DNA from: Spirochaetia bacterium
Lineage (GTDB): Bacteria > Spirochaetota > Spirochaetia > CADAEX01
Assembly (NCBI GenBank): GCA_963662265.2
Contig: CAXXHA010000010.1
Location: 1 to 64,000, forward strand
Direction of reading: 5' to 3'
DNA: 64,000 nt
The stretch's first letter is position 1. Each line of letters starts with the position of its first letter. Below, in pieces: positions 36,136-56,414 of this stretch. Both the position numbers and the translations under genes were made by a program. The notes under the pieces are model-generated. The model ran no database searches. It saw only the letters and a list, made by a program, of their open reading frames with translations, and was not told where the DNA came from.

Positions 36136-37485
36136 TCAGCAGTTCTTATTTCCCGGACCGATTTCATACCAGTTTATTCTTCTTGTCAGCACCATAATTA
36201 CCGCAAGTATTATAAAAAGGCCAAGCGATCCGATCAGCAGCGCCATATCTTCCGAAGCAAGAGCCATATAAAGGTAGAGGTAGAGCAGAGTATTCAAAAA
36301 AGCCATAACAGCTCCTTTCTGAGCGCTTCGAAGGACTGCTCCTGTATAAAATGATACAAGCGCTGCCGATGCTCCTGCAGATGCCATGTAGGCAAGGAAA
36401 AAAGCTATATGTTCAGAAAGGGAAATGAGCAGAAGAAAAAACATGCAGACCGACAAACCTATCATGATGTACTGAAGGGGATGAAGTTTTTTCACAGTAA
36501 TTACTTCAAACAGGAAAAGAATAATGAAGGGGAGAAAAATAAACAGAAAACAGTACTTCATAGCCCTGTGACTCATGTAATAGCTGTCTACCGGTGTAAT
36601 AAAGTTTACACCAAATCCGCTGTCATAAATATAATTCCAGTCATAGTTATTTTCCATCCCGCTCTGGGGATAGTTTCTTGCAAGAGCACCGACATTCCAT
36701 TGGGCAGTAAACCCGTTTTTATCAATATCTCTTTCTGTTGGAATAAAAGATCCCGAGAATTCCGGGCTGATCCAGTCGGAGCTGACTGATACAGATGTTT
36801 CCCTACCCAGAGGAAAGAAGGTTAGAGCACCGCCTCCCTTTAAGCTGACAGACATTTTAAAATCAGCTTTCTCAGAACCATTGAAAGGAACAGATGCGCT
36901 TATACCTGCAGGAAATATTGATGTCCCTGATGTTCCTCCCTGGAAAGCGAATTTTTCCCCGTTCCAGTCCAGATCAACAGACTGGCTGAGTCCTTTTATA
37001 TCTCCCAGGCCGAGAATTATTCTGGCTTCTTTCCAGATAACTTCCCCCCTGTCAGCCTTCCACACCTCATCAATATTTTTTCCGAAATTCCCTTCGATTG
37101 TAAAACTGCCCTTATAGAGCTCAATCTCAAAAATTCCCTTTTCTCTTGTATGTGACTCAAGAATACCGTCAACTTTCAGATCATCGGGGAGAATATAGAG
37201 AAACTGCCTTGATAGGCGAAGAACATCCTTACCATCTATATATTCTATCTCTTTTTTTTCTACCGGTATTGCCAGAACCGGTCCTGCAATATGCTGCCGT
37301 CCGCCCCATTGATTTATAACAGCGTACTCAGCATTTTCCTTTCTGTTTTCACGCTCTCTTACAAGATTACTTATTGCCGAAGCCGGAAGAAGAAGCAGAG
37401 CTGCTATAACCAGAGTTACCATCAGTTTTGCCATAGGGCTGTTTCCCTTTAATTTAACCCTGTTAATTATTTTGTTATCACCCAT
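36136..37485 (-). CDS. creD: Inner membrane protein CreD
   Basis: LVRERE, WGGRQHIAGPVL, F.G.F.P, LHPLQYIMIGL, LLISLSEH, VMVLTRRINWY. Confidence 0.92.
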   Translation of the reverse strand: MGDNKIINRVKLKGNSPMAKLMVTLVIAALLLLPASAISNLVRERENRKENAEYAVINQWGGRQHIAGPVLAIPVEKKEIEYIDGKDVLRLSRQFLYILPDDLKVDGILESHTREKGIFEIELYKGSFTIEGNFGKNIDEVWKADRGEVIWKEARIILGLGDIKGLSQSVDLDWNGEKFAFQGGTSGTSIFPAGISASVPFNGSEKADFKMSVSLKGGGALTFFPLGRETSVSVSSDWISPEFSGSFIPTERDIDKNGFTAQWNVGALARNYPQSGMENNYDWNYIYDSGFGVNFITPVDSYYMSHRAMKYCFLFIFLPFIILFLFEVITVKKLHPLQYIMIGLSVCMFFLLLISLSEHIAFFLAYMASAGASAALVSFYTGAVLRSAQKGAVMAFLNTLLYLYLYMALASEDMALLIGSLGLFIILAVIMVLTRRINWYEIGPGNKNC

Positions 37486-37621
37486 ATTAACCTCTTTTTA
37501 ATTTGATATGATGAAGTATGACTCTTGCAGTTGGCAGGAAAAGGGCATAAATGTGGCAATATTGTGACATTGAAAACATCTGTCTTGGTTTTTACATGTT
37601 TCATATGATAAATTAAGATAT

Positions 37622-38317
37622 ATGAAAATATCAGTTGTTGATGATGAACCTGACTTGAGAGAAACTATCTCATATGCCCTTACCCATGAAGGGTATGACT
37701 GTGAAAGCTACAGGGACGGTCTTCATGCATGGACTGCCTTCAGTCAAAAACTTCCTGATCTTATTATTCTTGATGTATCAATGCCTCAAATGGACGGGCT
37801 TGAACTGTGCAGGAGAATCAGAAAAATATCAGAGACAGTACCTATTCTGTTTCTCTCGTCCAAGGATGATGAAATTGACCGTATTCTTGGACTGGAAATC
37901 GGCGGCGATGATTACATGTGTAAACCATTCTCAGTCCGGGAGCTGCTGGTCAGAATCAAGGTTCTTTTCAGGAGGCAGATGGCCAGGCAGGAAAATGCCA
38001 AAACAGAAGATATTTATCAGCTCGGGAACCTCATCCTTCATTACGGGAAGTATATGGCTTTCTGGAAAGATCAGTTAATTGAACTTACTGTTACAGAATT
38101 CCTCCTTCTTAAAATACTTTCTCAAAATCCCGGATTCGTTAAAACAAGAGAAGTGTTAATGAACCAGGTTTATCCCGAGGGAACCTATGTCTCTGCAAGA
38201 ACAATTGATACACACATAAAAAGACTGAGAAAAAAAATACAGAAAATGGATGAATCATTTGATGAAATTGAAACAGTTTACGGGGTGGGCTACAGATACA
38301 GGCAGCCTGCTGCATAG
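37622..38317 (+). CDS. OmpR-family response regulator (ChvI/CreB-like)
   Basis: VVDDE, LDVSMPQMDG, KPFS, RTIDTHIKRLRKK, IETVYGVGY. Confidence 0.92.
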   Translation: MKISVVDDEPDLRETISYALTHEGYDCESYRDGLHAWTAFSQKLPDLIILDVSMPQMDGLELCRRIRKISETVPILFLSSKDDEIDRILGLEIGGDDYMCKPFSVRELLVRIKVLFRRQMARQENAKTEDIYQLGNLILHYGKYMAFWKDQLIELTVTEFLLLKILSQNPGFVKTREVLMNQVYPEGTYVSARTIDTHIKRLRKKIQKMDESFDEIETVYGVGYRYRQPAA

Positions 38318-39854
38318 TATATCGCTCAGACTTCTTCTATTTAATATCCTTCTCGTTTTCCTCCCTATTGCCGCTGTTCTCTACCTTGATGTATATGAGG
38401 AAAAACTTCTGTTATCACAGGAAAAATCCATGGTTCAGCAGGGGCGCCTCCTTTCTGCAGCGCTCAGCAACCAGGGTGAAATTGAAAAAGAAAATGTTGA
38501 GTTTATTCTGAAAAACCTCGCAGGGAGGACAGAAACAAGGCTCAGGGTAGTTGATAATAAAGGCGTCTTACTGGCAGACACAAGCACTCTTTTTTTAACA
38601 AAGCAGCCGTCTCCGGCTCCCGCTAAAAGTAAACAACAGGAAGAAATCATGATTCATAAAGAGGATACCCTCCTTTACAGAATTGCAATTTTCCCAATCA
38701 GGGTATATAGAAAATTATTCAATCCACCGGTCTCTGTAGAAAATGAAACTTTCTACAACTCAACCGAACCTCTCATGGGTAAGGAGATCCAGGCAGCGCT
38801 TGAAGGAAAATACGGAGCTGTTACAAGATTATCAAGGGGAGGACAGAGATCTGTTACCCTCTATACTGCAATACCTGTTTTTAACGGAGATGAAGTTACA
38901 GGCGCTGTTTTAAGCAGTCAATCGACATACAGAATACTCAAGGATTTATATGAAGTCCGTTTATTTATTGTAAAGATATTTATAGCCTCATTGACAGCTG
39001 CACTCTGTATAAGCCTGTTCTTATCCAGAACAATTTCTTTCAGAATAAAAAAACTCAGAAAAGAGGCTCAATCAATAACAACAGGAAGAGGCAGGATTAA
39101 AGGAACATTCACCTCTTTCAAATTGAAAGATGAAATCGGATTTCTCTCCTTTTCACTTAAAGATCTTACAGACCGCCTGGACCGCCATATACAGTTTATT
39201 GACAGCTTTTCACGGGATATCAGCCATGAGTTTAAAAACCCCCTGGCAGTGATCAGATCATCAGCAGAGATGATTGAAAGAACAGAAGGCAGGGAGCAGA
39301 CACGGTTTATCCAGTTGATTAATCAGAATACAGGAAGAATGGAATCACTGCTGAACGGCATTGAGGAAGTTTCAAGGCTTGATTCTTCCCTGGACAGGGA
39401 GAAAAAAGAAAAGATTGAAATATCCGATTTCTTAAACATCATACTGGAAGGTTTCAGGATTACTTTTTCCGGCAGAAACTGGATTTTTGAAAATTTCAAA
39501 CAAGGTTATTTTATCCTGGCAAATCCCGAGAGGCTCAGCCAGATTTTTGTCAATCTTTATGAAAATGCATGCTCTTTTTCCCCCCGGGACGGGAAGATTA
39601 TTACATCCATACAGAAAGAGAGGCACCAGCTTAAAATAACAATATTCAATGAAGGGCCTCAGCTTCCGGAAGAGGATAAAGAAAAGATATTCACCCGTTT
39701 TTACACATCAAGGGAAACTGACAAGAACAGGCATCATGGCCTGGGTCTTTCAATTGTAAAAACCATTGTTGAAAGTTACGGAGGCACAGTTTCCGGAGAA
39801 AACTCCCCTGGTGGTGTATCTTTTATAATATTACTGCCGCTGTTAAAAAGCTGA
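38250..39854 (+). CDS. Sensor histidine kinase (ChvG/CreC-like)
   Basis: Two TM segments, HAMP, SHEFKNPL, NLYENA, GLGLSIV. The true start may be CTG 38307/38310 overlapping the response-regulator stop. Confidence 0.9.
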   Translation: MNHLMKLKQFTGWATDTGSLLHSISLRLLLFNILLVFLPIAAVLYLDVYEEKLLLSQEKSMVQQGRLLSAALSNQGEIEKENVEFILKNLAGRTETRLRVVDNKGVLLADTSTLFLTKQPSPAPAKSKQQEEIMIHKEDTLLYRIAIFPIRVYRKLFNPPVSVENETFYNSTEPLMGKEIQAALEGKYGAVTRLSRGGQRSVTLYTAIPVFNGDEVTGAVLSSQSTYRILKDLYEVRLFIVKIFIASLTAALCISLFLSRTISFRIKKLRKEAQSITTGRGRIKGTFTSFKLKDEIGFLSFSLKDLTDRLDRHIQFIDSFSRDISHEFKNPLAVIRSSAEMIERTEGREQTRFIQLINQNTGRMESLLNGIEEVSRLDSSLDREKKEKIEISDFLNIILEGFRITFSGRNWIFENFKQGYFILANPERLSQIFVNLYENACSFSPRDGKIITSIQKERHQLKITIFNEGPQLPEEDKEKIFTRFYTSRETDKNRHHGLGLSIVKTIVESYGGTVSGENSPGGVSFIILLPLLKS

Positions 39855-39991
39855 ACAAATCAAACTGGCTGCTGAGTATTCTGAGATACCAGCTATTGTA
39901 AAATTACTCCCTGTATCAGGCTTTAAAACGTGGAAGAATATCCCATGATACATATTTAAAGAATCTTAGTTATACCGATAAAACTTGTTTT

Positions 39992-40666
39992 TTATTCTCG
40001 CATTAAATATATTACTTGTTTTCGAAACCAGGATCTTGGAGCCATTTTTCGATAATAGTTCACAATTAAATGAAATGAACATTTACCAAGTTTTTTCCCG
40101 CATCCACATGGACAAACCTTTTTATTTCCAACTCTTTTCTTAAGTCCCATAAGCCGAAATGCCTGGATAATTTGATAATCTTCTTCTAAACCTAATAGTA
40201 AAGAATAGTCATCCAAAGCTCCGGAATTCCCGTGGTCCAGTTCTCCGAACATAAAATCATCACCGTACTTTAATTTAACAGAGACAGCATAAAAGTAAGG
40301 GATTAAACATCTCTCTGCAAAAACAACCAGATCAGGAGAATTATTCACTATCGATAATAGACGGAGAGGAGATCCGAGACAGAGTGAACCGTCAGGATTT
40401 ACGTGAAAATCACCATTCTTAGGAATCCTCCCTTTTGTTTCTTTTACTACCGGAACTACTTGAGGAAAACCATAAGGAACTAAAAGTTCAATATTAAATT
40501 GGTCACAAATAGTTCCTCTGTTGTTTGTATCTGCAGTAAAACTAAATATTCCTCGAAGGTATATACCCAATTCAGATGATGGAGCAGTGGACATGCCCGG
40601 ATATTCGGAGAGAAATTTTTCTATTCCAAATTGTTTAGACTTTTCAAGCACATTTATACTCGCCAT
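39992..40666 (-). CDS. CBASS-associated prokaryotic E2-like protein with C-terminal SEC-C-type motif
   Basis: IELLVPYGFPQVVPVVKE and FHVNPDGSLCLG (UBC-like HxNxxGxxC), CPCGCGKKLGKC; overlaps the CD-NTase 3' end. Confidence 0.8.
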   Translation of the reverse strand: MASINVLEKSKQFGIEKFLSEYPGMSTAPSSELGIYLRGIFSFTADTNNRGTICDQFNIELLVPYGFPQVVPVVKETKGRIPKNGDFHVNPDGSLCLGSPLRLLSIVNNSPDLVVFAERCLIPYFYAVSVKLKYGDDFMFGELDHGNSGALDDYSLLLGLEEDYQIIQAFRLMGLKKRVGNKKVCPCGCGKKLGKCSFHLIVNYYRKMAPRSWFRKQVIYLMRE

Positions 40667-41844
40667 GGTTTTGGTGGATTTGCTTCCTCAAGGTGATGTC
40701 TTTTTTGTGTAATGATATGAACAGGCTTCTGCTCAAATCCAAGTCCTTTACTTAAAAGTTCAGAATTAAGTTTTACTGAGAATTTTCTCTCTGCCATCTC
40801 CCGGATGAATTCGGTATCAGTAGTTGAAGTAATATGGTAAAAATCTTTCTTGACTTGCATTAGCCACAAATGGAACGTCTCCTCAAGTCTTAGGTGAAGA
40901 CAATCTGCTCTGTACCATCTATCAGCAAAGTCTTCTCCTGGGTCCACAGGATTCGGTACACGAGGAATCGATGCATTTATATAGTTTTCCATTTTGCTCA
41001 AAACATTATTCAGAGCTAATTGAAGATTTGTTTCGCCCTGATAAGCTCGTGATGCTAATGTTGTAATTATGATTGAAATAGGCTTCGATTCCGGGTTTTC
41101 GATACTCCAACAGTCTCTATGCCTTTTAAGTAATTGAATAACTCTTTGTAATGGCGATTTTATCTTGTACTGAGGAACATCATCAACTTGCGCTTTTTTC
41201 ATCCTGTATCCTATAGGTAATGATTGCATTCGGTATCCAAACCACTTTGCATAACCTTCAGGATTACTAATATTCCAATCGTCACAGATATTTCTGTATG
41301 ATTCATGACGATCATCAGTGATGGAAATTGTCGTATAAGCAGCCGAAGCGGCTAATGGATCTTCAAGTCCAGTTGATCGAATCGATTTTAAAATCGCTTC
41401 TTGCTTTACACTTTCGGCGGGAATACATGGGACAATATCCATGTGAAAACTGATTTCATCTTGATATTCTAAACGCCAACATCTATGTTTTGGTTCCAGT
41501 CTTTTTTGGATTCCTCTTGCTGTTCTGTATAATTCCAGCTCTGACCCAACAATTTTCTTTAAACCTTCTTGAGTGATGGTTCTTTTATCAAATCCGGTCC
41601 GCAATTTGCAAGCGAGATCGAGATCGTATTCATCTCTTTCATTTATCGGACGTATTGCAGTGCCAAGTCTAAAAGACCCCTGAGGGAAAATGTGTGGCTC
41701 GTTATCTTTAAGTAGAGATCCTTCTCTATCAAACCATTTCCCCAAGTCTTCATATCTTTTTTTTGCTTTTTCATAAGCATGATCAGGTAATTCCAGCTGT
41801 TCGATCAAGTTCGAAAGTATCGTTTCTTTTTGTATTTCAGTCAT
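40654..41844 (-). CDS. CD-NTase (cGAS/DncV-like cyclic nucleotide synthase) of CBASS
   Basis: PQGSFRLGTAIRP..DEYDLD, RCWRLEY, FHMDIVP, SNPEGY, LQRVIQLLKRHRD, PISIIITTL, NPVDPGEDFADRW; GGAGG RBS before ATG 41844. Confidence 0.93.
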   Translation of the reverse strand: MTEIQKETILSNLIEQLELPDHAYEKAKKRYEDLGKWFDREGSLLKDNEPHIFPQGSFRLGTAIRPINERDEYDLDLACKLRTGFDKRTITQEGLKKIVGSELELYRTARGIQKRLEPKHRCWRLEYQDEISFHMDIVPCIPAESVKQEAILKSIRSTGLEDPLAASAAYTTISITDDRHESYRNICDDWNISNPEGYAKWFGYRMQSLPIGYRMKKAQVDDVPQYKIKSPLQRVIQLLKRHRDCWSIENPESKPISIIITTLASRAYQGETNLQLALNNVLSKMENYINASIPRVPNPVDPGEDFADRWYRADCLHLRLEETFHLWLMQVKKDFYHITSTTDTEFIREMAERKFSVKLNSELLSKGLGFEQKPVHIITQKRHHLEEANPPKPWRV

Positions 41845-43009
41845 CTTTTCCTCCGATTGTGATTGTTTTAACAAACTTTCGCAGTTTGTTATTCTGGTCA
41901 TATATTATCCAGGGCATATCCGCTTTTGGCATTCTGGCTCTCCCCATTTCTATAGAACAGGAGATACCCATAGCTGGAAAAACTGATAAATCTTTTTGAC
42001 CGTGGAAATTCTTTATTTGAATCATTAGAGACCTTATTGCCGTACGCATCATTGAAAGTTGAACTTGATTGCGAATATTGTCATTTCCTATATGTGTTTC
42101 AGGGACGGTTAAATCCCATATTGAAACATTATCCCCTAATACAGATTTGATTCGGTCATGATGTATGGAATCGCTCAAAGAAATAACAAGCACTGGTTGT
42201 CCCTCTGTGTTCTTTGGTTTTTTTATGATGAATTCGAATCCTTCTGGAAAATTTTGCCAGTGCCAGCCTTTGGGTTCTCTTAAAAGTTGATAGGTATCTA
42301 CAGATACTTTATCAGTGAATAACGCCCCTAGATGAATCAACAAAGGAATATCTGCTAAACAAAATAGCGAGAAATGCTTTGTCTGATCACTTTCAACAAG
42401 AGGTATTATCTTCTGGTTGAACATCCTGATTTGATGAGATAATTCAGATTCCCAAAATATTGACGTTTTGTCCTCGTGGGAGCATAACATTGATAGATCA
42501 ACTGATTTATCAGAAGCAGGATAGCGCTCTGGAAACATCGCTTCTATGGCTTCATCCTTCTGAAGCGGAGACCGTTGCTCGCCTATATTACTACCATAAA
42601 AAACTACATGGGATTTTTTGTTCGCTACAATTCCTGTTACGGATACAACTCTGTATTCATGCTCTCTTTTCCATTGCTGGAGTATTGAAGCAGAATATTT
42701 ACTACCATCTTTGTCTTGATCAATCGTTTTATGGCAGTCATGACACATAAGCATCAGGTTGTCTACATCATTAAGTTTCTGCGGCTTTTTTTGAAAAGGA
42801 CCCCACCCACGGGGGCCATCTTTTGAGAAAGAGTAAATGTGAGCTTTCTCCGAAATATTAACACGTTCTTGGGTAACTGGAGACTTGTAGAGTATTCGAT
42901 TACAACCATTAAATTGGCATCGTCCAGCAGCTCGTGCCCACAATTCTCGCTCTATTTCTTTTTTGATATTGCGGGTTATTTTGATTTCTTTAATAACATC
43001 TGTCCCCAT
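41837..43009 (-). CDS. cap5: HNH-SAVED effector nuclease (Cap5-type)
   Basis: LWARAAGRCQFNGC, EKAHI...GPRG and NLMLMCHDCHKTID (HNH); C-terminal LADIPLLIHLG, YQLLRE, LVISLSD and VFPAM...MGR (SAVED). Confidence 0.88.
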   Translation of the reverse strand: MGTDVIKEIKITRNIKKEIERELWARAAGRCQFNGCNRILYKSPVTQERVNISEKAHIYSFSKDGPRGWGPFQKKPQKLNDVDNLMLMCHDCHKTIDQDKDGSKYSASILQQWKREHEYRVVSVTGIVANKKSHVVFYGSNIGEQRSPLQKDEAIEAMFPERYPASDKSVDLSMLCSHEDKTSIFWESELSHQIRMFNQKIIPLVESDQTKHFSLFCLADIPLLIHLGALFTDKVSVDTYQLLREPKGWHWQNFPEGFEFIIKKPKNTEGQPVLVISLSDSIHHDRIKSVLGDNVSIWDLTVPETHIGNDNIRNQVQLSMMRTAIRSLMIQIKNFHGQKDLSVFPAMGISCSIEMGRARMPKADMPWIIYDQNNKLRKFVKTITIGGKDD

Positions 43010-43020
43010 AAATATACCCT

Positions 43021-43254
43021 CTATTTCTTATCCTTTGGAGGACAGGGGTCATTACCATAACTGTTACCACCACGGATTTTTCCATCTCGACCATGAATCT
43101 TGGTATCAGATTTCTGGTTTCGGGCAATATCCTGTGCTATTTCAATTGCTTCTTGTTGAGTTGAGGTTACCTTTGTAGCCTTACTATTCCCGGCACCTTT
43201 AACAGCCCATCCATCTTCATGTTTAACGACATGCTGATTCTTTCCTTTTGCCAT
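43021..43254 (-). CDS. DUF2188 family small protein
   Basis: NQHVV..GWAVKGAG..AT..TQQEAI..A..IHGRDGKIR..SYGNDP.PP; AAGGAGG RBS. Confidence 0.88.
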   Translation of the reverse strand: MAKGKNQHVVKHEDGWAVKGAGNSKATKVTSTQQEAIEIAQDIARNQKSDTKIHGRDGKIRGGNSYGNDPCPPKDKK

Positions 43255-43271
43255 CTCGGCCTCCTTGCATT

Positions 43272-43308
43272 TTCTCGTTCATTGAAACAGATGAACGAGA
43301 ATGATCAA
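43272..43308 (-). promoter_or_regulatory. Candidate CBASS promoter/operator
   Basis: Perfect 11-bp inverted repeat TTCTCGTTCAT-N8-ATGAACGAGAA at 43272-43301, overlapping TTGATC...TGnTTCAAT on the minus strand; an 18/19-identical box recurs at 43863-43881. Confidence 0.7.
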
Positions 43309-43314
43309 AAAATT

Positions 43315-43872
43315 TTATTTAATTCTATAGTAATAGAATTCTTTACCACCACTCGGGGCAATTTCTTCTTGTCTTATTAGAAACCCCCCAGTCACTAATT
43401 GTTTAAGTTTCATGCTTGCATTGTTTAATTTCAGTTCCAACTCCTTCGCTACTTCAGCTGCTGTTATTGACGGCTTGGAAATAGCAAGCTCCAAAACTGC
43501 TTTTATTCCCAATTTTGGTTCTGTTCCAATTATCTGATACTCATTATCATTCCAGATAAACATTGGAATCTCTTTTTTAAGTGCAGCAGCATCAAGGTTA
43601 TCTATTAAATCAGGGTTCGTTACATCTGTAAGACAGATCCCTTTATCTCCCTTATATCGCCTAGCAACTTCCATTATACTTTCACGGGGAAATGAGGCAT
43701 CCAATCTACCTACATTTTTCAATGATATTAAAAAAAGAAGAGAAGTTGATTTTTCAATAATATTGAGGAGTTTTGAGTGTACTTCAATACCTTGTTCGCG
43801 ACCCCACCCATCATCTGATTCCATGAGATTTCGAAGAAGTATAGTCTCTCTTTTCTGCTTCATCTCTTTCAT
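43315..43872 (-). CDS. STAS-like + winged-helix transcriptional regulator (CapS-like)
   Basis: ISLKNVGRLDASFPRE STAS-like segment with a candidate phospho-Ser; ITAAEVAKELELKLNNASMKLKQLVTGGFLIR wHTH. May start at ATG 43863. Confidence 0.75.
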   Translation of the reverse strand: MKEMKQKRETILLRNLMESDDGWGREQGIEVHSKLLNIIEKSTSLLFLISLKNVGRLDASFPRESIMEVARRYKGDKGICLTDVTNPDLIDNLDAAALKKEIPMFIWNDNEYQIIGTEPKLGIKAVLELAISKPSITAAEVAKELELKLNNASMKLKQLVTGGFLIRQEEIAPSGGKEFYYYRIK

Positions 43873-43888
43873 TGAAACAGAAAACTAA

Positions 43889-44818
43889 CTATTTGTCAAG
43901 ACCAATATCTAATGTAATATGAGTTCCGGCGAAATCCATTGTCGTTTTTGTTATAGAACCTTGAGCTTCATACCCAAATATTTTTGAGTCTAGGGGTGTA
44001 AGGTGAAATCTGGAGTGAGGGAGTCGCACATCCAGAGTCGCATGAAATTTCAAAGCATGTTTTGCACATGTTTTTAGTCCACAACCTTTGTCACCACCAT
44101 CTTTTGAAAGGCCTTCGGAAAACATCAGTTCAATCAATTTTGCATCATCTGCATCTTTATATTGGGGATAATGATCTGTAATTTTTGAACGAAGGGAAGT
44201 CAGTAATCCTATACCGCTATCTGACACAGCAACTTTAACAGAAGTACCTTTTTTATAAACTTGAAAGGCGATAAAACCTTTAAGCTCAGTTTGACTATGA
44301 AGGTAGATATTTTCTACAAGCTCAGCAAAAAAAGTATAACAGGGAGTATCAAAAGAGGCCCTTATATTCTCGTCAGCAATATTGGATAGCAATTTATTAG
44401 CTAAAGTCGTAGGTAAGGAAGAATCTCTTGCTAAATTTACAGGATCTATTGGAATAATTTCAAGAACTCCAGAGTTTGTACCTCGAAATATATCTGCACC
44501 AGAAATATCTGGCCTTTCTGGGACAGTTGTTATATCATCTTCCAACTGATCAAAAAAACCTAATCTATTCATATATCCAAATGCACCATCTTCACCTTCT
44601 TCGAAATTAAGACAGACATTTTTTCCTGATTTGCATAGTTGGTTAAGATAGCTTAAAAGCCGAACCCCCGCATCTACCATGAGCTTTCCGCCATCAGGAA
44701 CAGTAATCAAGAAATCCGTACTATCTTGAATAGTCGTACCTTCAACCAGATTTAATTGATTTTCAAGATCCACACAGCTAATCCATTTTTCCGGTAATTC
44801 TATTGAAATCTGTCTCAT
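43889..44818 (-). CDS. Anti-sigma-factor-type GHKL/HATPase kinase with N-terminal STAS-like domain (CapK-like)
   Basis: FAELVENIYLHS (N box), VAVSDSGIGL (G1), GLSK...GCGL (G2), GTHITL; no HisKA phospho-His domain. Confidence 0.78.
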   Translation of the reverse strand: MRQISIELPEKWISCVDLENQLNLVEGTTIQDSTDFLITVPDGGKLMVDAGVRLLSYLNQLCKSGKNVCLNFEEGEDGAFGYMNRLGFFDQLEDDITTVPERPDISGADIFRGTNSGVLEIIPIDPVNLARDSSLPTTLANKLLSNIADENIRASFDTPCYTFFAELVENIYLHSQTELKGFIAFQVYKKGTSVKVAVSDSGIGLLTSLRSKITDHYPQYKDADDAKLIELMFSEGLSKDGGDKGCGLKTCAKHALKFHATLDVRLPHSRFHLTPLDSKIFGYEAQGSITKTTMDFAGTHITLDIGLDK

Positions 44819-44928
44819 GCTTATTCGCTCCTAACTACACATATTTCCAAGAGAAATACTCAAATCCATTGGAAACTGTAAATTCCATATCATTCCCCAG
44901 AGCCTTAAAATGGGCTTTTCCACTCATA

Positions 44929-45810
44929 TCAATGATGCAGTATATCCACCGCATTGCTAGATATCTTCTGTATCGACTCAACCGATTTTTCGTAGTTCTC
45001 CTCTGCAACCCCTGTGTAGAGAATATCCATGATAATTATCTGGGAAAGCCTTGCGTATGAAGTAAGAAGGTAGTCATCAAGCTCCTCGTACTGGGAGGAA
45101 ATCTTTATGTCTGCCATCTTTATAAGGGGGGATCTTCCCGGGCCTGTTATTGCAATAGTTGCAGCGCCGTTATCCTTTGCAATCTTCATTGCAGTGTTGA
45201 CAACTTCTGTCTTTCCCGAATAACTGAGGCCTATTGCGACATCCCCTTTCTCTGTTAATGATGCTGCAATCCCCATCTCTGCAGGGTCGTTGTAGACAGA
45301 TGTCTTTATCCCTGCCCTGTAAAACCTGAGGTATGAGTTTTTTGCTGCTATGCAGGATGTCCCTACGCAGAAGAAATTTATACTTTTTGCATCCTTTATA
45401 GCACCGATCGCATTTAGGATCTCCCTGGTATCGAGGTTCTTGAGAGTCATCTGTATGTCTGAGATATATTCATTCTTTACACGTGATATGAGGCTGTCGA
45501 CAGGGTCGTCTGTGTTTATCCTGTCAAGGTCGTCAAGTTCACCTTTAGTCTCTCTTACAGATGAATCAACCTTTATAACTGCATACTTGAAGTTCTGAAA
45601 GCTGCTGAACCCGATTTTTCTTATAAATCTTGTTACTGTCGCTTCCGACACATCGCAGTTCAGTGCAAGCTGCTTTATCTTGAGATGTTTGAGCTCCTCC
45701 CTGTTGGAGAGAAAATATTCAGCCACCTTCACTTGAGCCTTGTTGAACGAAGGCATGAGGTTCTGTATTCTTACGAAAAGATTGTTTATAAAGATATCTT
45801 CCTGCGCCAT
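44929..45810 (-). CDS. RpiR/MurR-family regulator
   Basis: VSEATVTRFIRKIGFSSFQNFK HTH plus a SIS domain (GLSYSGKT). Confidence 0.92.
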   Translation of the reverse strand: MAQEDIFINNLFVRIQNLMPSFNKAQVKVAEYFLSNREELKHLKIKQLALNCDVSEATVTRFIRKIGFSSFQNFKYAVIKVDSSVRETKGELDDLDRINTDDPVDSLISRVKNEYISDIQMTLKNLDTREILNAIGAIKDAKSINFFCVGTSCIAAKNSYLRFYRAGIKTSVYNDPAEMGIAASLTEKGDVAIGLSYSGKTEVVNTAMKIAKDNGAATIAITGPGRSPLIKMADIKISSQYEELDDYLLTSYARLSQIIIMDILYTGVAEENYEKSVESIQKISSNAVDILHH

Positions 45811-54871: not shown

Positions 54872-56209
54872 CTAGTAACCGAGATCAAGCATTGCATCTG
54901 CAACTTTCTTGAAACCGGCAATATTAGCACCGTTGATGTAGTTTACAAAACCTGAAGCATCTTTGCCTTCTCTAACACAAGCAGCGTGGATGTCTTTCAT
55001 GATTACTTTGAGTTTTGCATCAACTTCTTCAGATGACCAGTTGTATTTCATTGAGTTCTGGCACATTTCAAGACCTGATACTGCAACACCACCGGCATTA
55101 GCAGCTTTACCAGGACCAAACGGGATCTTGTTTTTAACAAACTCAACTGCAGCATCTGCAGTACAGCCCATGTTGGATGTTTCAACAACATATTTAACAC
55201 CGTTTGAGATAAGAGCTTTTGCATCATCGAGAGTAAGCTCGTTCTGGAAAGCACAGGGGAATGCCATATCAACTTTAAGTTCCCATGGTTTTTTACCTGC
55301 AACAAATTTTGCGCCGAATTTTTCAGCGTAAGGAGCTACAACATCATTGTTGGAAGCTCTGAGCTCAAGCATATAGTCAAATTTTTCTTTTGTATTGATA
55401 CCTGCTTCATCATAGATGTATCCGTCAGGTCCAGAAATTGCCACTACTTTACCACCAAGTTCAGTAGCCTTCATTACAGCACCCCAGGCAACATTACCGA
55501 AACCTGAAACAGCAATTGTTTTGCCTTTCATTGAATCATTGTTTGTTTTGAGCATTTCATCAGCAAAATACATTGTACCAAAACCAGTTGCTTCAGGTCT
55601 TACAAGTGAACCGCCCCAGTTAAGGCCTTTACCTGTGAGTACACCTGTGTTTTCAGCTCTGAGTCTCTTGTACTGACCATACATGAAACCGATTTCTCTT
55701 CCGCCTACTCCGATATCACCTGCAGGAACGTCAGTCTGAGGACCGATATATTTCTGAAGTTCTGTCATGAAACTTCGACAGAATCTCATGATTTCTGCAT
55801 CTGATTTACCTTTAGGATTAAAGTCTGAACCACCTTTACCTCCACCCATTGGGAGAGTAGTAAGACTGTTTTTGAAAATCTGCTCAAATCCGAGGAATTT
55901 AAGAGTTCCGAGAGTAACGCTTGGGTGGAATCTGAGTCCGCCCTTATATGGACCAATAGCGTTGTTAAACTGAACTCTGTAAGCCTTGTTTACCTGTACT
56001 TCACCGTTATCATCTTCCCATTCAACTTTGAACATGAAAGTTCTGTCCGGCTCAGTAATTCTTTCAAGGATTTTTGCATCTACATATGCAGGGTTGTCGT
56101 TAACTACATCAATAATAGATTCAACTACTTCTTTTGCAGCCTGAATAAATTCCGGCTGAGCTGGGTTTTTTCTTTCCAGTTCTGCCATAAATTCGTCAAG
56201 ATTATACAT
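54872..56209 (-). CDS. gdhA: NAD(P)-specific glutamate dehydrogenase
   Basis: GPYKGGLRFHPSV, LPMGGGKGGSDF, DVPAGDIGVG, RPEATGFG, GFGNVA; AAGGAG RBS before ATG 56209. Confidence 0.96.
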   Translation of the reverse strand: MYNLDEFMAELERKNPAQPEFIQAAKEVVESIIDVVNDNPAYVDAKILERITEPDRTFMFKVEWEDDNGEVQVNKAYRVQFNNAIGPYKGGLRFHPSVTLGTLKFLGFEQIFKNSLTTLPMGGGKGGSDFNPKGKSDAEIMRFCRSFMTELQKYIGPQTDVPAGDIGVGGREIGFMYGQYKRLRAENTGVLTGKGLNWGGSLVRPEATGFGTMYFADEMLKTNNDSMKGKTIAVSGFGNVAWGAVMKATELGGKVVAISGPDGYIYDEAGINTKEKFDYMLELRASNNDVVAPYAEKFGAKFVAGKKPWELKVDMAFPCAFQNELTLDDAKALISNGVKYVVETSNMGCTADAAVEFVKNKIPFGPGKAANAGGVAVSGLEMCQNSMKYNWSSEEVDAKLKVIMKDIHAACVREGKDASGFVNYINGANIAGFKKVADAMLDLGY

Positions 56210-56414
56210 TTCTAACAGCTCCTTAAAACATTTTAATACCACCCCTCAGGGCGGTATTACTTATCTATATATAAAGCCTATTTCTGATATTAATCAAGTA
56301 TTAATATTGGCCTATCTATACATCTATACAAGTTAAATCATGAATATTGTTGATATTTAACATAGTGGTGTATTATTATTAAGAAAACGAACATTCTTTT
56401 TTAAGGAATTTACA

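What the first reader, a model, noticed from the sequence alone, without database searches (positions are those of the whole stretch)
39992..44818. Kinase-regulated CBASS island: GHKL kinase, STAS-wHTH, DUF2188, HNH-SAVED, CD-NTase, E2/SEC-C
Seen: six tightly packed co-directional genes between a two-component locus and an RpiR locus, with visibly different codon habits (for example frequent CGA) and no integrase. Established: CD-NTase plus HNH-SAVED is a CBASS anti-phage system, and GHKL kinase plus STAS mirrors SpoIIAB/SpoIIAA partner switching. I recall a similar CBASS-linked pair being called CapK/CapS but cannot verify that here. Inference: phosphorylation of the Ser in LDASF releases the repressor and induces CBASS. 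This full combination in a probable spirochaete is unusual.
Basis: partly seen in the sequence, partly recalled or inferred. Interest (0 to 1): 0.78.

Follow-up and report, generated by a model that had tools for sequence, protein, structure and literature searches.

The report
CapK–CapS-controlled CBASS anti-phage island
This is a small horizontally acquired anti-phage island in which a kinase and repressor pair (CapK and CapS, described in 2026) most likely switches on a cyclic-nucleotide suicide system after DNA damage; it is an ordinary new member of a known kind.

Summary
Six tightly packed minus-strand genes fill 39992-44818. They are CapK (STAS + SpoIIAB-like GHKL kinase), CapS (STAS + winged HTH), a 77-aa DUF2188 protein, Cap5 (HNH-SAVED nuclease), a clade-G-like CD-NTase and an E2-only regulator. 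GC3 is low and CGA use is high compared with the flanks.

Chambers et al. (EMBO J 2026, PMC13373217) showed that ssDNA-activated CapK phosphorylates a conserved CapS serine. That breaks the repressor dimer and de-represses the downstream immune operon. The window's CapS S60 (in LDASF) aligns with that serine in the solved CapS structures.

An 83%-identical copy of the island lies in another spirochaete genome. The paper's Dataset EV2 lists an Oceanispirochaeta capKS + "CBASS Type IIB (E2)" locus.

Minor new details:
- This CapK lacks the N-terminal HTH and belongs to a separate HTH-less clade.
- In that clade the candidate CapS operators use TTCA/TGAA half-sites instead of the published TTAA.
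- The island's right edge is the 3' remnant of a type III restriction gene.
- The role of DUF2188 is unknown.

Verdict: new member of a known kind, with low to moderate interest.

The parts
44835..44923 (-). Remnant of the 3' end (about 29 codons plus stop) of a type III restriction endonuclease (res) gene. It marks the right edge of the island, 5 nt from the rpiR stop codon.
   Evidence: The translation SGKAHFKALGNDMEFTVSNGFEYFSWKYV* matches the C-terminus of the 1000-aa Res protein upstream of capK in G288 (L091 6898-9900; PADLOC REase_III E 0). DNA homology to that island ends at 44923.
43889..44818 (-). capK: 309-aa STAS + GHKL Ser kinase, with no N-terminal HTH.
   Evidence: HATPase_c at 162-273. 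AF2 model pLDDT 85. VIA-align: residues 115-309 to SpoIIAB (1l0o_A, Z 11.6, rmsd 3.0, 132 aligned), RsbW (Z 9.8) and UsfX (Z 9.7); residues 1-101 to RsbS (Z 8.5) and SpoIIAA (Z 7.7). Invariant W12, E166, N170, D200-S-G-x-G and G245-x-G247. An in-frame stop lies 15 nt upstream of the ATG. Long homologues carry about 55 extra N-terminal residues that are absent here.
43894..43899 (-). Candidate -35 hexamer TTGACA of a capS promoter (P1), made of the last capK codons.
   Evidence: Read from the sequence. It lies 17 nt upstream of TTCAAT. The same CTTGACA occurs at the capK 3' end in the related loci printed. This is inference; the consensus scan did not list it.
43868..43876 (-). Narrow palindrome TTCAaTGAA, the candidate CapS operator 1. 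It overlaps the candidate extended -10 (TGtTTCAAT), just upstream of or overlapping the capS start.
   Evidence: The 14-mer TCTGTTTCAATGAA occurs exactly twice in the 64-kb window, here and at 43278-43291. TGNTTCAATGAA gave 3 matches against 0.17 expected. The geometry matches the published narrow palindrome TTAAaTTAA between capK and capS. It is present in 6 of 13 HTH-less-clade loci.
43315..43872 (-). capS: STAS + wHTH repressor, 185 aa (homologues start at M4, position 43863). The phospho-acceptor is S60.
   Evidence: AF2 model pLDDT 93.9. Foldseek: C-terminal wHTH to MarR/PadR-type regulators and N-terminal domain to SpoIIAA (1tid_B, TMt 0.58). Profile versus PDB: 9Z72 at 4.3e-52 and 9Z71 at 7.1e-52. 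Invariant D58, S60, F61, E64, G175 and G176; N151 is nearly invariant.
43272..43301 (-). Wide palindrome, the candidate CapS operator 2 over the promoter of the DUF2188-CBASS operon. Core is GTTCA-N10-TGAAC (43277-43296), extended to 11-nt arms TTCTCGTTCAT / ATGAACGAGAA.
   Evidence: Perfect inverted repeat. GTTCA-N10-TGAAC occurs once in the window (0.06 expected). The arms are conserved and the spacer varies in G288 and L001. TTCA-N10-TGAA lies 15-29 nt after the capS stop in 13 of 13 HTH-less-clade loci. The published wide palindrome also has a 10-bp spacing.
43021..43254 (-). DUF2188 small protein (77 aa), the first gene behind the CapS-controlled promoter. Function unknown.
   Evidence: PF09954 at 1.6e-23. 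PADLOC PDC-S16 at 7e-37. It occupies the same position in G288 (97% aa) and L001/L083 (86% aa).
41837..43009 (-). cap5: HNH-SAVED nuclease effector.
   Evidence: SAVED 1.3e-41 and HNH_2 2.1e-7. PADLOC endonuclease effector 1.8e-137. Solved Cap5-type chains 7rwk (9e-67), 8ysq and 7rwm.
40654..41844 (-). CD-NTase, clade-G-like (396 aa from M20; the longest ORF reaches 41901).
   Evidence: PADLOC cyclase 3.3e-121. PDB 9WOO (VcCdnG) 1.8e-119 over residues 5-394, and SmCdnG 8hsb 2e-25. 48% identical to the CdnG of a Vibrio capKS-CBASS locus. The QGSF, YDLDL and HMD motifs are visible in the translation.
39992..40666 (-). E2-only CBASS regulator with a C-terminal Cys cluster (SEC-C-like).
   Evidence: PADLOC E2 PDLC00859 at 1.9e-83. 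H88, C96 and C185-P-C-G188 are invariant in 8 of 8 aligned E2s. No E1 or JAB gene is in the island.

Best explanation
The region is a horizontally acquired defence island of about 4.9 kb with two layers.

Layer 1 is a transcriptional switch, CapK + CapS. In the resting state CapS dimers sit on two palindromes. A narrow one, TTCAaTGAA, overlaps the -10 of a promoter at the capK/capS junction. A wide one, TTCA-N10-TGAA, lies over the promoter in front of DUF2188. Together they repress capS itself and the DUF2188-cap5-cdnG-E2 operon. DNA damage or phage replication produces ssDNA, which binds between the STAS and GHKL domains of CapK (W12) and activates the kinase. CapK then phosphorylates CapS on S60 at the start of STAS helix 2. 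The dimer falls apart, DNA binding is lost and the operon is transcribed.

Layer 2 is an E2-type (type II short) CBASS. The CdnG-like cyclase, held in check or primed by covalent linkage to the E2 (C96), makes a cyclic dinucleotide on infection, most likely 3'2'-cGAMP. That product binds the SAVED domain of Cap5, which oligomerises and degrades DNA through its HNH domain, causing abortive infection.

Shown here: the genes, folds, conserved residues, repeated palindromes, conserved synteny and foreign composition. Inferred from the published homologues: the kinase reaction, ssDNA sensing, repression, the nucleotide product and phage defence.
For: Family membership:
- The CapS profile matches the solved CapS structures 9Z71 and 9Z72 at E about 5e-52 over the full length, with S60 in the phospho-Ser column.
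- The DNA-contact residues named in the paper (Er N145, K151, G169, G170) correspond to N151, K157, G175 and G176 here.
- The CapK GHKL domain is closest in fold to the anti-sigma Ser kinases SpoIIAB (Z 11.6), RsbW (Z 9.8) and UsfX (Z 9.7). Its N-terminal domain is closest to STAS proteins (Z 7.7-8.5).
- W12 and N170 are conserved.

Binding:
- The complex prediction for CapK + CapS STAS domain + ATP scored 0.90, with the best of 3 controls at 0.00. That mark was reached by 116 of 157 solved complexes and 2 of 215 mismatched pairs.
- The three runs agree in 100% of contacts and the partner pLDDT is at least 90.
- The interface includes CapS residues 56-61 against CapK 161-169 and 242-257.
- A similar complex (SpoIIAB-SpoIIAA, 1TID) is solved, so the pass may reflect likeness rather than this pair.

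Gene linkage:
- A capK homologue lies directly upstream of capS in 79 of 80 genome loci. The 80th has only 252 nt of upstream sequence.
- Downstream cargo by clustering and family scans: CBASS 21, Bub-like ubiquitination operons 42, MBL/E1-E2-JAB 2, YegP 3, Tn7-like 2, caspase-like 2, unresolved 8. This matches the published spectrum.

Cis-elements:
- An exact 14-mer is shared by the two junctions and occurs nowhere else in 64 kb.
- There is a perfect 11-nt inverted repeat.
- The wide palindrome is present in 13 of 13 HTH-less-clade loci, and the TTAA version in 42 of 60 long-clade loci.

CBASS core.

Foreign origin:
- Codon and GC3 contrast with the flanks.
- capS was found in 3 of 401 genomes of the class (G000 included) and in 0 of 2 same-genus genomes.
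- The island is 83.2% identical at the DNA level to one in another family's genome.
Against: - Nothing was measured in this organism.
- This CapK lacks the N-terminal HTH of the characterised E. roggenkampii CapK. The paper reports that deleting the HTH had no effect on induction or phosphorylation.
- The half-sites are TTCA/TGAA, not the TTAA that was shown to bind CapS, so operator assignment rests on geometry and conservation only.
- The narrow palindrome is present in only 6 of 13 clade members and is degenerate in the closest relative, G288.
- The consensus promoter scan found no site at either junction, and fewer sites overall than shuffles (12 against 16.3).
- The inverted repeat could instead form an RNA hairpin.
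- The upstream R-M partner seen in G288 has been lost here.
- Pfam's HATPase_c hit on CapK is below the gathering threshold (21.5 against 26.4 bits).
Confidence: 0.8

Rival explanations
1. The pair works post-translationally like VapK/VapS. The HTH-less kinase phosphorylates the STAS protein to release and activate a bound effector (for instance DUF2188 or Cap5), rather than to de-repress transcription.
For: This CapK has the STAS-GHKL architecture without an HTH, which the paper describes for VapK of the vapKSC toxin-antitoxin loci.
Against: - VapS has only a short C-terminal helix.
- The A1 profile did not hit the VapS chain of 9Z7O at E <= 0.1.
- No PIN/VapC gene is present.
- Conserved palindromes sit at both promoters.
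- The aromatic residue is Trp as in CapK, not Phe as in VapK.
Confidence: 0.05
2. The pair is a transcriptional switch as proposed, but it responds to a cue other than repair-derived ssDNA (for example a phage product or another nucleic acid). Alternatively, after loss of its upstream R-M partner it is now decoupled and the CBASS is expressed constitutively.
For: - The clade is deeply separated from the characterised one (SH-aLRT 100, quick tree of 74 rows) and lacks the HTH.
- The adjacent R-M system seen in G288 has been reduced to a 29-codon remnant here.
- The narrow operator is not conserved in 7 of 13 clade members.
Against: - W12 (the ssDNA-stacking Trp) and the kinase motifs are invariant or nearly so across both clades.
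- The wide operator is perfect here.
- All six reading frames are intact.
Confidence: 0.1
3. It is a classical SpoIIAB/SpoIIAA-type partner-switching module that controls an alternative sigma factor encoded elsewhere, and it lies next to a CBASS only by chance.
For: The best structural matches of the kinase domain are the anti-sigma factors SpoIIAB, RsbW and UsfX.
Against: - There is no sigma factor or PP2C phosphatase among the island or flanking genes.
- The STAS protein is fused to a DNA-binding wHTH.
- The pair is linked to immune or ubiquitin-like operons, recognised in 72 of 80 loci.
- The whole six-gene block moves together between genomes.
Confidence: 0.02

Closest known systems
CapK + CapS of Enterobacter roggenkampii and Vibrio cholerae (Chambers, Rani, Min, Villa, Corbett; EMBO J 2026; PMC13373217; PDB 9Z71, 9Z72, 9Z73)
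   Same: - Gene order: capK, then capS, then an immune operon.
- CapS is STAS + wHTH with the phospho-Ser (S60 here; S54 in Er, S58 in Vc) and the DNA-contact residues.
- The CapK STAS + GHKL core keeps the kinase Asn and the ssDNA Trp.
- Two palindromic sites are present: a narrow one at the capK/capS junction and a wide one (10-bp spacer) downstream of capS.
- A CBASS cargo is one of the published cargo classes (75 of 443 loci).
   Different: - CapK lacks the roughly 55-aa N-terminal HTH (309 aa against about 360 aa).
- The half-sites are TTCA/TGAA instead of TTAA.
- CapS is only 37-40% identical to the proteobacterial ones.
- A DUF2188 gene is the first gene of the controlled operon.
- No function has been tested here.
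   Same: G288 has the same six genes in the same order: CapK 87%, CapS 88%, DUF2188 97%, Cap5 87%, CD-NTase 87% and E2 74% amino-acid identity. DNA identity is 83.2% over 4837 nt.
   Different: - G288 has an intact type III R-M system (Res, Mod), DUF4391 and a helicase upstream of capK, and an IS21-like element downstream.
- The G288 E2 C-terminus diverges after the CPCGCG motif.
- The window keeps only the last 29 res codons and has an E2 tail like the gammaproteobacterial ones.
- That G288 is the listed strain was not established.
E2-CBASS / CdnG-Cap5 systems (VcCdnG-VcCap5, PMC12804361, PDB 9WOO; SmCdnG-SmE2, PMC12948482, PDB 8hsb; AsCdnG-Cap5, preprint 10.1101/2021.08.31.458341)
   Same: - A clade-G-type CD-NTase of about 396 aa (E 1.8e-119 to VcCdnG).
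- An HNH-SAVED Cap5 effector.
- A single E2 without E1 or JAB.
- The E2 His and Cys are conserved.
   Different: - The E2 has no sequence match to any solved chain at E <= 0.01.
- The nucleotide product and phage targets have not been tested.
- Gene order here is cap5-cdnG-E2, behind DUF2188.
SpoIIAB-SpoIIAA / RsbW-RsbV partner switching (PDB 1TID, 1L0O, 6M36)
   Same: - The kinase fold (Z 11.6 to SpoIIAB).
- A STAS substrate with the Ser at the N-terminus of helix 2.
- The predicted interface places that Ser loop against the kinase N-box and ATP lid.
   Different: - There is no sigma factor target and no PP2C phosphatase.
- The kinase carries its own STAS domain.
- The substrate is itself the transcription factor.
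VapK-VapS-VapC (same paper, PDB 9Z7O)
   Same: A kinase of STAS-GHKL architecture without an HTH.
   Different: - The partner has a wHTH rather than a short antitoxin helix.
- There is no PIN nuclease.
- Trp rather than Phe stands at the ssDNA-stacking position.

Membership tests
CapK/CapS regulator pair (PMC13373217) | CapK contains a STAS domain followed by a GHKL (SpoIIAB-like) kinase domain | tested here: met
   VIA-align: residues 1-101 to RsbS (Z 8.5) and SpoIIAA (Z 7.7); residues 115-309 to SpoIIAB (Z 11.6, rmsd 3.0, 132 aligned). HATPase_c E 3.3e-4.
CapK/CapS regulator pair (PMC13373217) | CapK N-terminal HTH domain (HTH-STAS-GHKL as first described) | tested here: not met
   - The alignment with 8 long homologues shows their roughly 55-aa N-terminal extension is absent here.
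- An in-frame stop lies 15 nt upstream of the ATG.
- The paper reports that a delta-HTH construct behaves like wild type.
- Its Dataset EV2 lists an Oceanispirochaeta locus.
- The 87%-identical CapK of a same-class genome is also 309 aa.
The HTH therefore does not appear to be required for membership.
CapK/CapS regulator pair (PMC13373217) | Conserved kinase-site Asn (Er N218) and ssDNA-stacking Trp (Er W68) | tested here: met
   N170 is invariant in 39 of 39 and 13 of 13 aligned sequences. W12 is invariant in 39 of 39 and nearly invariant in the 13-sequence cross-clade alignment.
CapK/CapS regulator pair (PMC13373217) | CapS is an N-terminal STAS plus a C-terminal wHTH, with an absolutely conserved Ser on STAS helix 2 | tested here: met
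   - Model pLDDT 93.9, with helix 2 starting at residue 60.
- S60 is invariant in 38 of 38 sequences.
- The profile hits 9Z71 and 9Z72 at about 5e-52, with S60 in the column of Er S54 and Vc S58A.
CapK/CapS regulator pair (PMC13373217) | capK immediately followed by capS, upstream of and co-directional with an immune operon | tested here: met
   A 16-nt gap separates the two genes, and the CBASS lies downstream. The same arrangement holds in 79 of 80 related loci.
CapK/CapS regulator pair (PMC13373217) | Two palindromic CapS sites: a narrow one (1-bp spacer) at the capK/capS junction and a wide one (10-bp spacer) downstream of capS | tested here: met
   The geometry is met, with different half-sites: TTCAaTGAA at 43868-43876 and GTTCA-N10-TGAAC at 43277-43296. 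Binding was not tested.
CapK/CapS regulator pair (PMC13373217) | ssDNA-activated phosphorylation of CapS, dimer dissociation and DNA-damage-induced de-repression | not testable with these tools
   The only available evidence is a complex prediction: 0.90 against a best control of 0.00. It shows likeness to solved kinase-STAS complexes, not activity.
E2-CBASS (type II short; CdnG-Cap5-E2) | CD-NTase with GS and acidic catalytic motifs, of clade G type | tested here: met
   PADLOC cyclase 3.3e-121. VcCdnG 9WOO at 1.8e-119, and SmCdnG at 2e-25. The QGSF, YDLDL and HMD motifs are in the translation. Clade assignment is by nearest solved relatives; no clade tree was built.
E2-CBASS (type II short; CdnG-Cap5-E2) | Effector with a SAVED sensor fused to an HNH nuclease (Cap5) | tested here: met
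   SAVED 1.3e-41 and HNH_2 2.1e-7. 7rwk at 9e-67.
E2-CBASS (type II short; CdnG-Cap5-E2) | A stand-alone E2 with catalytic Cys, and no E1 or JAB | tested here: met
   PADLOC E2 1.9e-83. The only E1-E2 profile hits cover the E2 part. H88 and C96 are invariant in 8 of 8 sequences. No further ORF lies in the island.
E2-CBASS (type II short; CdnG-Cap5-E2) | Cyclic dinucleotide synthesis, Cap5 activation and phage protection | not testable with these tools
   3'2'-cGAMP is inferred from VcCdnG and AsCdnG (abstracts seen).
SpoIIAB/SpoIIAA partner-switching module | The kinase doubles as an anti-sigma factor with a cognate sigma factor, and a PP2C phosphatase resets the STAS protein | tested here: not met
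   No sigma-factor or PP2C family was found in the six island proteins or the four flanking proteins scanned. The rest of the genome was not searched for them.
VapKSC toxin-antitoxin | A STAS-only VapS with a short C-terminal helix, and a VapC PIN nuclease | tested here: not met
   The partner has a full wHTH. No PIN domain is in the island.

The most novel reading that the evidence does not exclude
The HTH-less CapK/CapS clade, to which this locus belongs, may be a distinct and older-looking lineage of the switch.

- It has its own operator code: TTCA/TGAA half-sites in 13 of 13 loci, against TTAA in 42 of 60 loci of the long clade.
- It spans at least eight phyla.
- Architecturally it bridges the transcriptional CapK/CapS and the post-translational VapK/VapS systems.

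Within it, the very slowly evolving 77-aa DUF2188 protein, the first gene released by CapS, may be a functional accessory of damage-induced immunity. It could be a small nucleic-acid-binding or CBASS-modulating factor rather than a passenger. This would fit its published association with CapH/CapP-controlled operons.
Probability: 0.25. Interest if true: 0.45.

Novelty: new member of a known kind. Interest (0 to 1): 0.25.

Why it matters
The locus adds a spirochaete example to a regulator family characterised only in Enterobacter and Vibrio proteins.

It is a natural experiment on the CapK HTH domain, whose role the authors left open. A whole clade does without the HTH and still keeps the Trp, the kinase site, the CapS serine and the two-operator layout.

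The clean switch of half-site (TTCA against TTAA) between clades gives a testable handle on CapS DNA recognition.

The restriction-gene remnant shows that these R-M + capKS + CBASS islands are cut down and reshuffled as modules.

None of this changes the picture of how such systems work.

Tried and rejected
- Consensus promoter and terminator scan of 39800-45100. It found 12 promoter-like sites against 16.3 in shuffles and none at the two junctions. It was uninformative because its rule excludes a TTCAAT -10.
- Search for direct repeats flanking the island (att-like). None lay at the ends.
- Foldseek of the CapK model against PDB. It gave only weak, high-rmsd multi-domain matches (best E 3.9e-4, rmsd 19.9). 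The VIA-align wide search resolved the two domains.
- DUF2188. No solved relative (best E 0.26). The Atlas returned only DUF2188 clusters. It was found in only 6 of 401 Spirochaetota genomes at E <= 1e-10, G000 included. Function remains open.
- E2 against PDB sequences. No hit at E <= 0.01.
- Earlier findings of this scan. Nothing near this place.
- A third match of TGNTTCAATGAA at 55527-55538 lies inside a 456-aa ORF and was taken as chance.
- PADLOC scan of the two genes that replace the island in the same-genus genome G160. No hit.
- I first read the high conservation of DUF2188 (97% and 86%) as special to this island. I rejected that after finding that the whole 77-aa family is 82-90% identical across many taxa.
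- The careful tree did not finish in the time allowed, so only the quick tree with SH-aLRT support is reported.

Full report
**1. What is in the sequence**

Six minus-strand ORFs fill 39992-44818 with gaps of 16, 60 and 11 nt and two small overlaps.

Family scans named four of them directly:
- A 77-aa DUF2188 protein (Pfam 1.6e-23; PADLOC candidate system PDC-S16, 7e-37).
- An HNH-SAVED nuclease (PADLOC 1.8e-137).
- A CD-NTase (PADLOC cyclase 3.3e-121).
- An E2 (PADLOC 1.9e-83).

The two upstream genes gave only sub-threshold hits. The 309-aa protein hit HATPase_c at E 3.3e-4. The C-terminus of the 185-aa protein hit MarR/HTH_20-type wHTH families.

The flanks are CreD, a response regulator and a histidine kinase on one side and RpiR on the other.

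- CGA is 20 of 82 Arg codons in the island and 1 of 114 in seven flanking genes.
- AGG is 10% against 41%.
- GC3 is 0.283 against 0.423.

**2. The two upstream proteins**

Homologue searches found 38 relatives of the 185-aa protein and 55 of the 309-aa protein. I aligned all 38 of the first set and 39 of the 55 of the second, leaving out 16 shorter hits of the second set (P0055, P0058, P0065, P0066, P0071, P0072, P0077, P0079, P0083, P0084, P0087-P0092).

AlphaFold models from these alignments were confident, at pLDDT 93.9 and 85.3.

The small protein:
- It is a beta-alpha domain followed by a winged HTH.
- Foldseek matched the C-terminal part to MarR/PadR-type regulators and the N-terminal part to SpoIIAA (1tid_B, TMt 0.58).
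- Its family profile hit two solved chains over the full length: 9Z72 at 4.3e-52 and 9Z71 at 7.1e-52.

The large protein:
- Foldseek was unclear.
- A VIA-align search of about 48,000 representative chains separated two domains.
- Residues 115-309 are closest to the anti-sigma Ser kinases SpoIIAB (Z 11.6, rmsd 3.0, 132 aligned), RsbW (Z 9.8) and UsfX (Z 9.7).
- Residues 1-101 are closest to STAS proteins: RsbS (Z 8.5), a mycobacterial antagonist (Z 8.2) and SpoIIAA (Z 7.7).

**3. It is a published system**

Two full-text searches found Chambers et al., EMBO J 2026 (PMC13373217) and its preprint. I read the abstract, sections 7, 8, 9, 11, 12, 13 and 17, further passages by term search, and one row of one supplementary table.

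The paper reports the following:
- It names the pair CapK (HTH-STAS-GHKL) and CapS (STAS-wHTH).
- It finds 443 capK genes, all followed by capS. Of these, 348 lie upstream of known or predicted immune operons, including 75 CBASS and 231 Bub.
- CapS is a dimeric repressor that binds a narrow palindrome (TTAAaTTAA) between capK and capS and a wide one (TTAA-N10-TTAA) downstream of capS.
- ssDNA activates CapK, through W68, to phosphorylate CapS S54. This dissociates the dimer and de-represses the operon after mitomycin C or levofloxacin treatment.
- 9Z71 is E. roggenkampii CapS, and 9Z72 and 9Z73 are V. cholerae CapS S58A.

In the alignments the window's S60 (R-L-D-A-S-F) stands in the column of that serine. 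In 9Z72 the column holds the engineered alanine.

The residues the paper gives as DNA contacts (Er N145, K151, G169, G170) correspond to N151, K157, G175 and G176 here. G175 and G176 are invariant and N151 is nearly so.

**4. Independent check of the linkage**

A scan of one genome per species found 111 loci encoding a CapS relative, and 80 were kept. A CapK homologue lies directly upstream in 79 of the 80. The last locus has only 252 nt upstream.

I clustered the downstream genes and scanned representatives against PADLOC and Pfam. The result:
- 21 CBASS. Seventeen have the same Cap5/E2 make-up as here: sixteen with a CdnG-like cyclase and L006 with a different cyclase. The others are a type III locus with HORMA/TRIP13/TIR, a full type II locus, a phospholipase type and a SAVED-2TM type.
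- 42 ubiquitination-like (Bub-type) operons, with Multi_ubiq, Prok-E2_E, ThiF/JAB and DUF6527.
- 2 MBL + E1-E2-JAB.
- 3 YegP (DUF1508).
- 2 Tn7-like.
- 2 caspase-like.
- 8 unresolved.

This reproduces the spectrum in the paper.

**5. How this copy differs**

*No HTH on CapK.* The proteobacterial CapKs are about 360-367 aa, and their first roughly 55 residues have no counterpart here. The window's ORF cannot be extended, because an in-frame stop lies 15 nt upstream. W12 aligns with the Trp that is W67 in the Citrobacter homologue (Er W68), and N170 with the kinase Asn.

*A separate clade.* I built a quick maximum-likelihood tree of 74 CapKs: the window, G288 and 72 of the 80 loci. Six loci with contig-truncated ORFs under 290 aa and two without an ORF call were left out. 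The tree splits 13 HTH-less proteins from 61 others with SH-aLRT 100 on both sides. The root is at the midpoint only, and the careful search did not finish. The 13 come from Spirochaetota, Acidobacteriota, Armatimonadota, Chloroflexota, Myxococcota, Cyanobacteriota, Thermodesulfobacteriota and Pseudomonadota. Their cargo is CBASS (5), Bub (3), MBL (2), Tn7-like (1) and unresolved (2).

[quoted passage not shown] Here the partner has a full wHTH, no PIN gene is present, and the aromatic residue is Trp, not Phe. I therefore file it as CapK/CapS. The authors report that a delta-HTH CapK behaves like wild type.

**6. Candidate operators**

- The 14-mer TCTGTTTCAATGAA occurs exactly twice in the 64-kb window, at 43868-43881 (capK/capS junction) and 43278-43291 (capS/DUF2188 spacer). 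The two sites form a 26-nt direct repeat at 85% identity.
- The first site holds the narrow palindrome TTCAaTGAA.
- The second is the core of a perfect inverted repeat, TTCTCGTTCAT-N8-ATGAACGAGAA. That is GTTCA-N10-TGAAC, which occurs once in the window against 0.06 expected.
- The arms are conserved and the spacer varies in G288 and in the spirochaete MAG locus L001.

Scripted counts:
- TTCA-N10-TGAA lies within 200 nt after the capS stop (first copy 15-29 nt after it) in 13 of 13 HTH-less-clade loci and in 0 of 60 long-clade loci.
- TTAA-N10-TTAA is found in 42 of 60 long-clade loci and in 0 of 13 short-clade loci.
- The narrow form is less constant: TTCAnTGAA in 6 of 13 short-clade loci and TTAAnTTAA in 14 of 60 long-clade loci.
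- Nine loci with a truncated or unclassified capK were kept apart.

By eye, a perfect TTGACA formed by the last capK codons lies 17 nt upstream of TGtTTCAAT at the first site. TTGATC lies 16 nt upstream of the same -10-like element at the second site. CapS bound there would cover the -10, as the paper describes for its promoters. The -10 lies so close to the capS start that a transcript from P1 would be leaderless or nearly so, which favours M4 (43863) as the start. This promoter reading is inference. The consensus scan did not list these sites.

**7. Kinase-substrate contact**

I ran a complex prediction of CapK (alignment A2), CapS residues 1-118 (alignment A1) and ATP.
- The score was 0.90 in three runs, against 0.00 for the best of three controls.
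- That mark was reached by 116 of 157 solved complexes and 2 of 215 mismatched pairs.
- The runs agree in 100% of contacts, and the partner pLDDT is at least 90.
- The interface pairs CapS residues 18-27, 56-61 and 86-101 with CapK residues 133-173 and 242-257, that is the N-box helix and the ATP-lid region.
- SpoIIAB-SpoIIAA is solved, so the pass may reflect that likeness rather than this pair.

**8. The CBASS core**

*Cyclase.* Taken from M20 (396 aa, the length of its homologues), it matches VcCdnG (PDB 9WOO) at 1.8e-119 and SmCdnG at 2e-25. It is 48% identical to the cyclase of a Vibrio capKS-CBASS locus. VcCdnG and Asticcacaulis CdnG make 3'2'-cGAMP, which activates Cap5 (abstracts).

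*Effector.* It matches solved SAVED-HNH chains, with 7rwk at 9e-67.

*E2.* It keeps H88 and C96 and a C-terminal CPCG...C cluster. C185, P186, C187 and G188 are invariant in 8 of 8 aligned sequences. In the Serratia system the E2 becomes covalently linked to the C-terminal region of CdnG (PMC12948482, abstract and section 7). Support for SEC-C as such is weak.

**9. Origin and borders**

- CapS was found in 3 of 401 genomes sampled from the class, G000 included, and in neither of the two same-genus genomes.
- G288, from another family of the class, carries the same six genes. The two DNAs align from window 40089 to 44923 at 83.2% identity.
- In G288 capK is preceded by a type III R-M system (Res, Mod), DUF4391 and a helicase. 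The island is followed by an IS21-like element.
- In the window only the last 29 res codons remain (44835-44923), ending 5 nt from the rpiR stop.
- The same-genus genome G160 is 90% identical up to about window 39874. It then carries two unrelated genes.
- G227 matches only the right flank, at 74% identity.
- No flanking direct repeats were found.

**10. DUF2188**

- It sits in the same place in G288 (97% aa) and L001 (86% aa).
- The whole 77-aa family is slow-evolving and widespread: 3588 hits, and all of the 120 best listed are 79-90% identical, in taxa as far apart as Legionella, Alteromonas and Pontiella.
- It is rare in Spirochaetota: 6 of 401 genomes at E <= 1e-10, G000 included.
- It occurs in viral contigs next to an Abi_alpha gene and a Cro/CI-like switch.
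- Passages of the Lau et al. 2022 preprint place DUF2188 genes in CapH/CapP-controlled operons.
- In 13 gammaproteobacterial capKS-CBASS loci a YdjM-family gene stands in its position.
- Its function is unknown.

**11. Verdict**

The locus is a new member of a known kind. The HTH-less clade, its TTCA operator code and the restriction-gene remnant are small additions. What the supplements of the paper say about CapK lengths was not read beyond one row, so the HTH-less form may already be tabulated there.

Noticed in passing
window 44835-44923 (-): The last 29 codons and stop of a type III restriction endonuclease gene survive between rpiR and capK. The intact gene stands in this position in G288 (L091 6898-9900).
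   Followed up: yes
L092 1842-4660 (G160:C1, same genus): At the site where the window has the island, right after the histidine kinase gene, the same-genus genome has two other minus-strand genes: 364 aa with a weak HNH_4 hit, and 515 aa with no family. Neither hits PADLOC. This may be a variable hotspot.
   Followed up: partly
L091 1-14000 (G288:C165): The sister island is flanked by type III R-M, DUF4391 and an SNF2-type helicase upstream, and by IS21-like IstA/IstB genes downstream. Its E2 C-terminus diverges after CPCGCG and lacks the last Cys of the cluster.
   Followed up: partly
window 43891-43900 and the capK 3' ends of the loci printed: The near-invariant C-terminal Leu-Asp of CapK is encoded by CTTGAC, which with the next base forms a TTGACA -35-like hexamer for the capS promoter. 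The protein and promoter constraints may coincide.
   Followed up: no
L032, L034, L038, L048, L049 (12412-16446): In five gammaproteobacterial capKS-CBASS loci the CBASS is followed by TraI_2 relaxase/helicase and TraD/TrwB-type coupling protein genes. This suggests carriage on an integrative conjugative element.
   Followed up: no
13 loci of cluster c6, e.g. L074 8867-9235: A YdjM-family (PF04307) small membrane protein is the first gene after capS in these CBASS loci, in the position held by DUF2188 in the window.
   Followed up: partly
L002 1526-6461 and L003 8610-13701: Here capKS is followed by Tn7-like genes: a TnsB-like protein of 886-912 aa, an AAA protein and TniQ. The regulator pair may be transposon cargo or may control transposition genes.
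   Followed up: no
L095 3951-7910 (viral contig): A DUF2188 gene (64% identical) lies beside an Abi_alpha gene, a Cro/CI-like HTH pair and a protein with a PemK/MazF-like domain in a predicted prophage.
   Followed up: partly
window 55527-55538 (-): A third match to TGNTTCAATGAA lies inside a 456-aa ORF (54872-56242). It was taken as chance.
   Followed up: yes
window 36136-39854: The left flank is a CreD-family inner membrane protein gene next to a response regulator / histidine kinase pair, an arrangement like creBCD. It is 90% identical in the same-genus genome G160.
   Followed up: no
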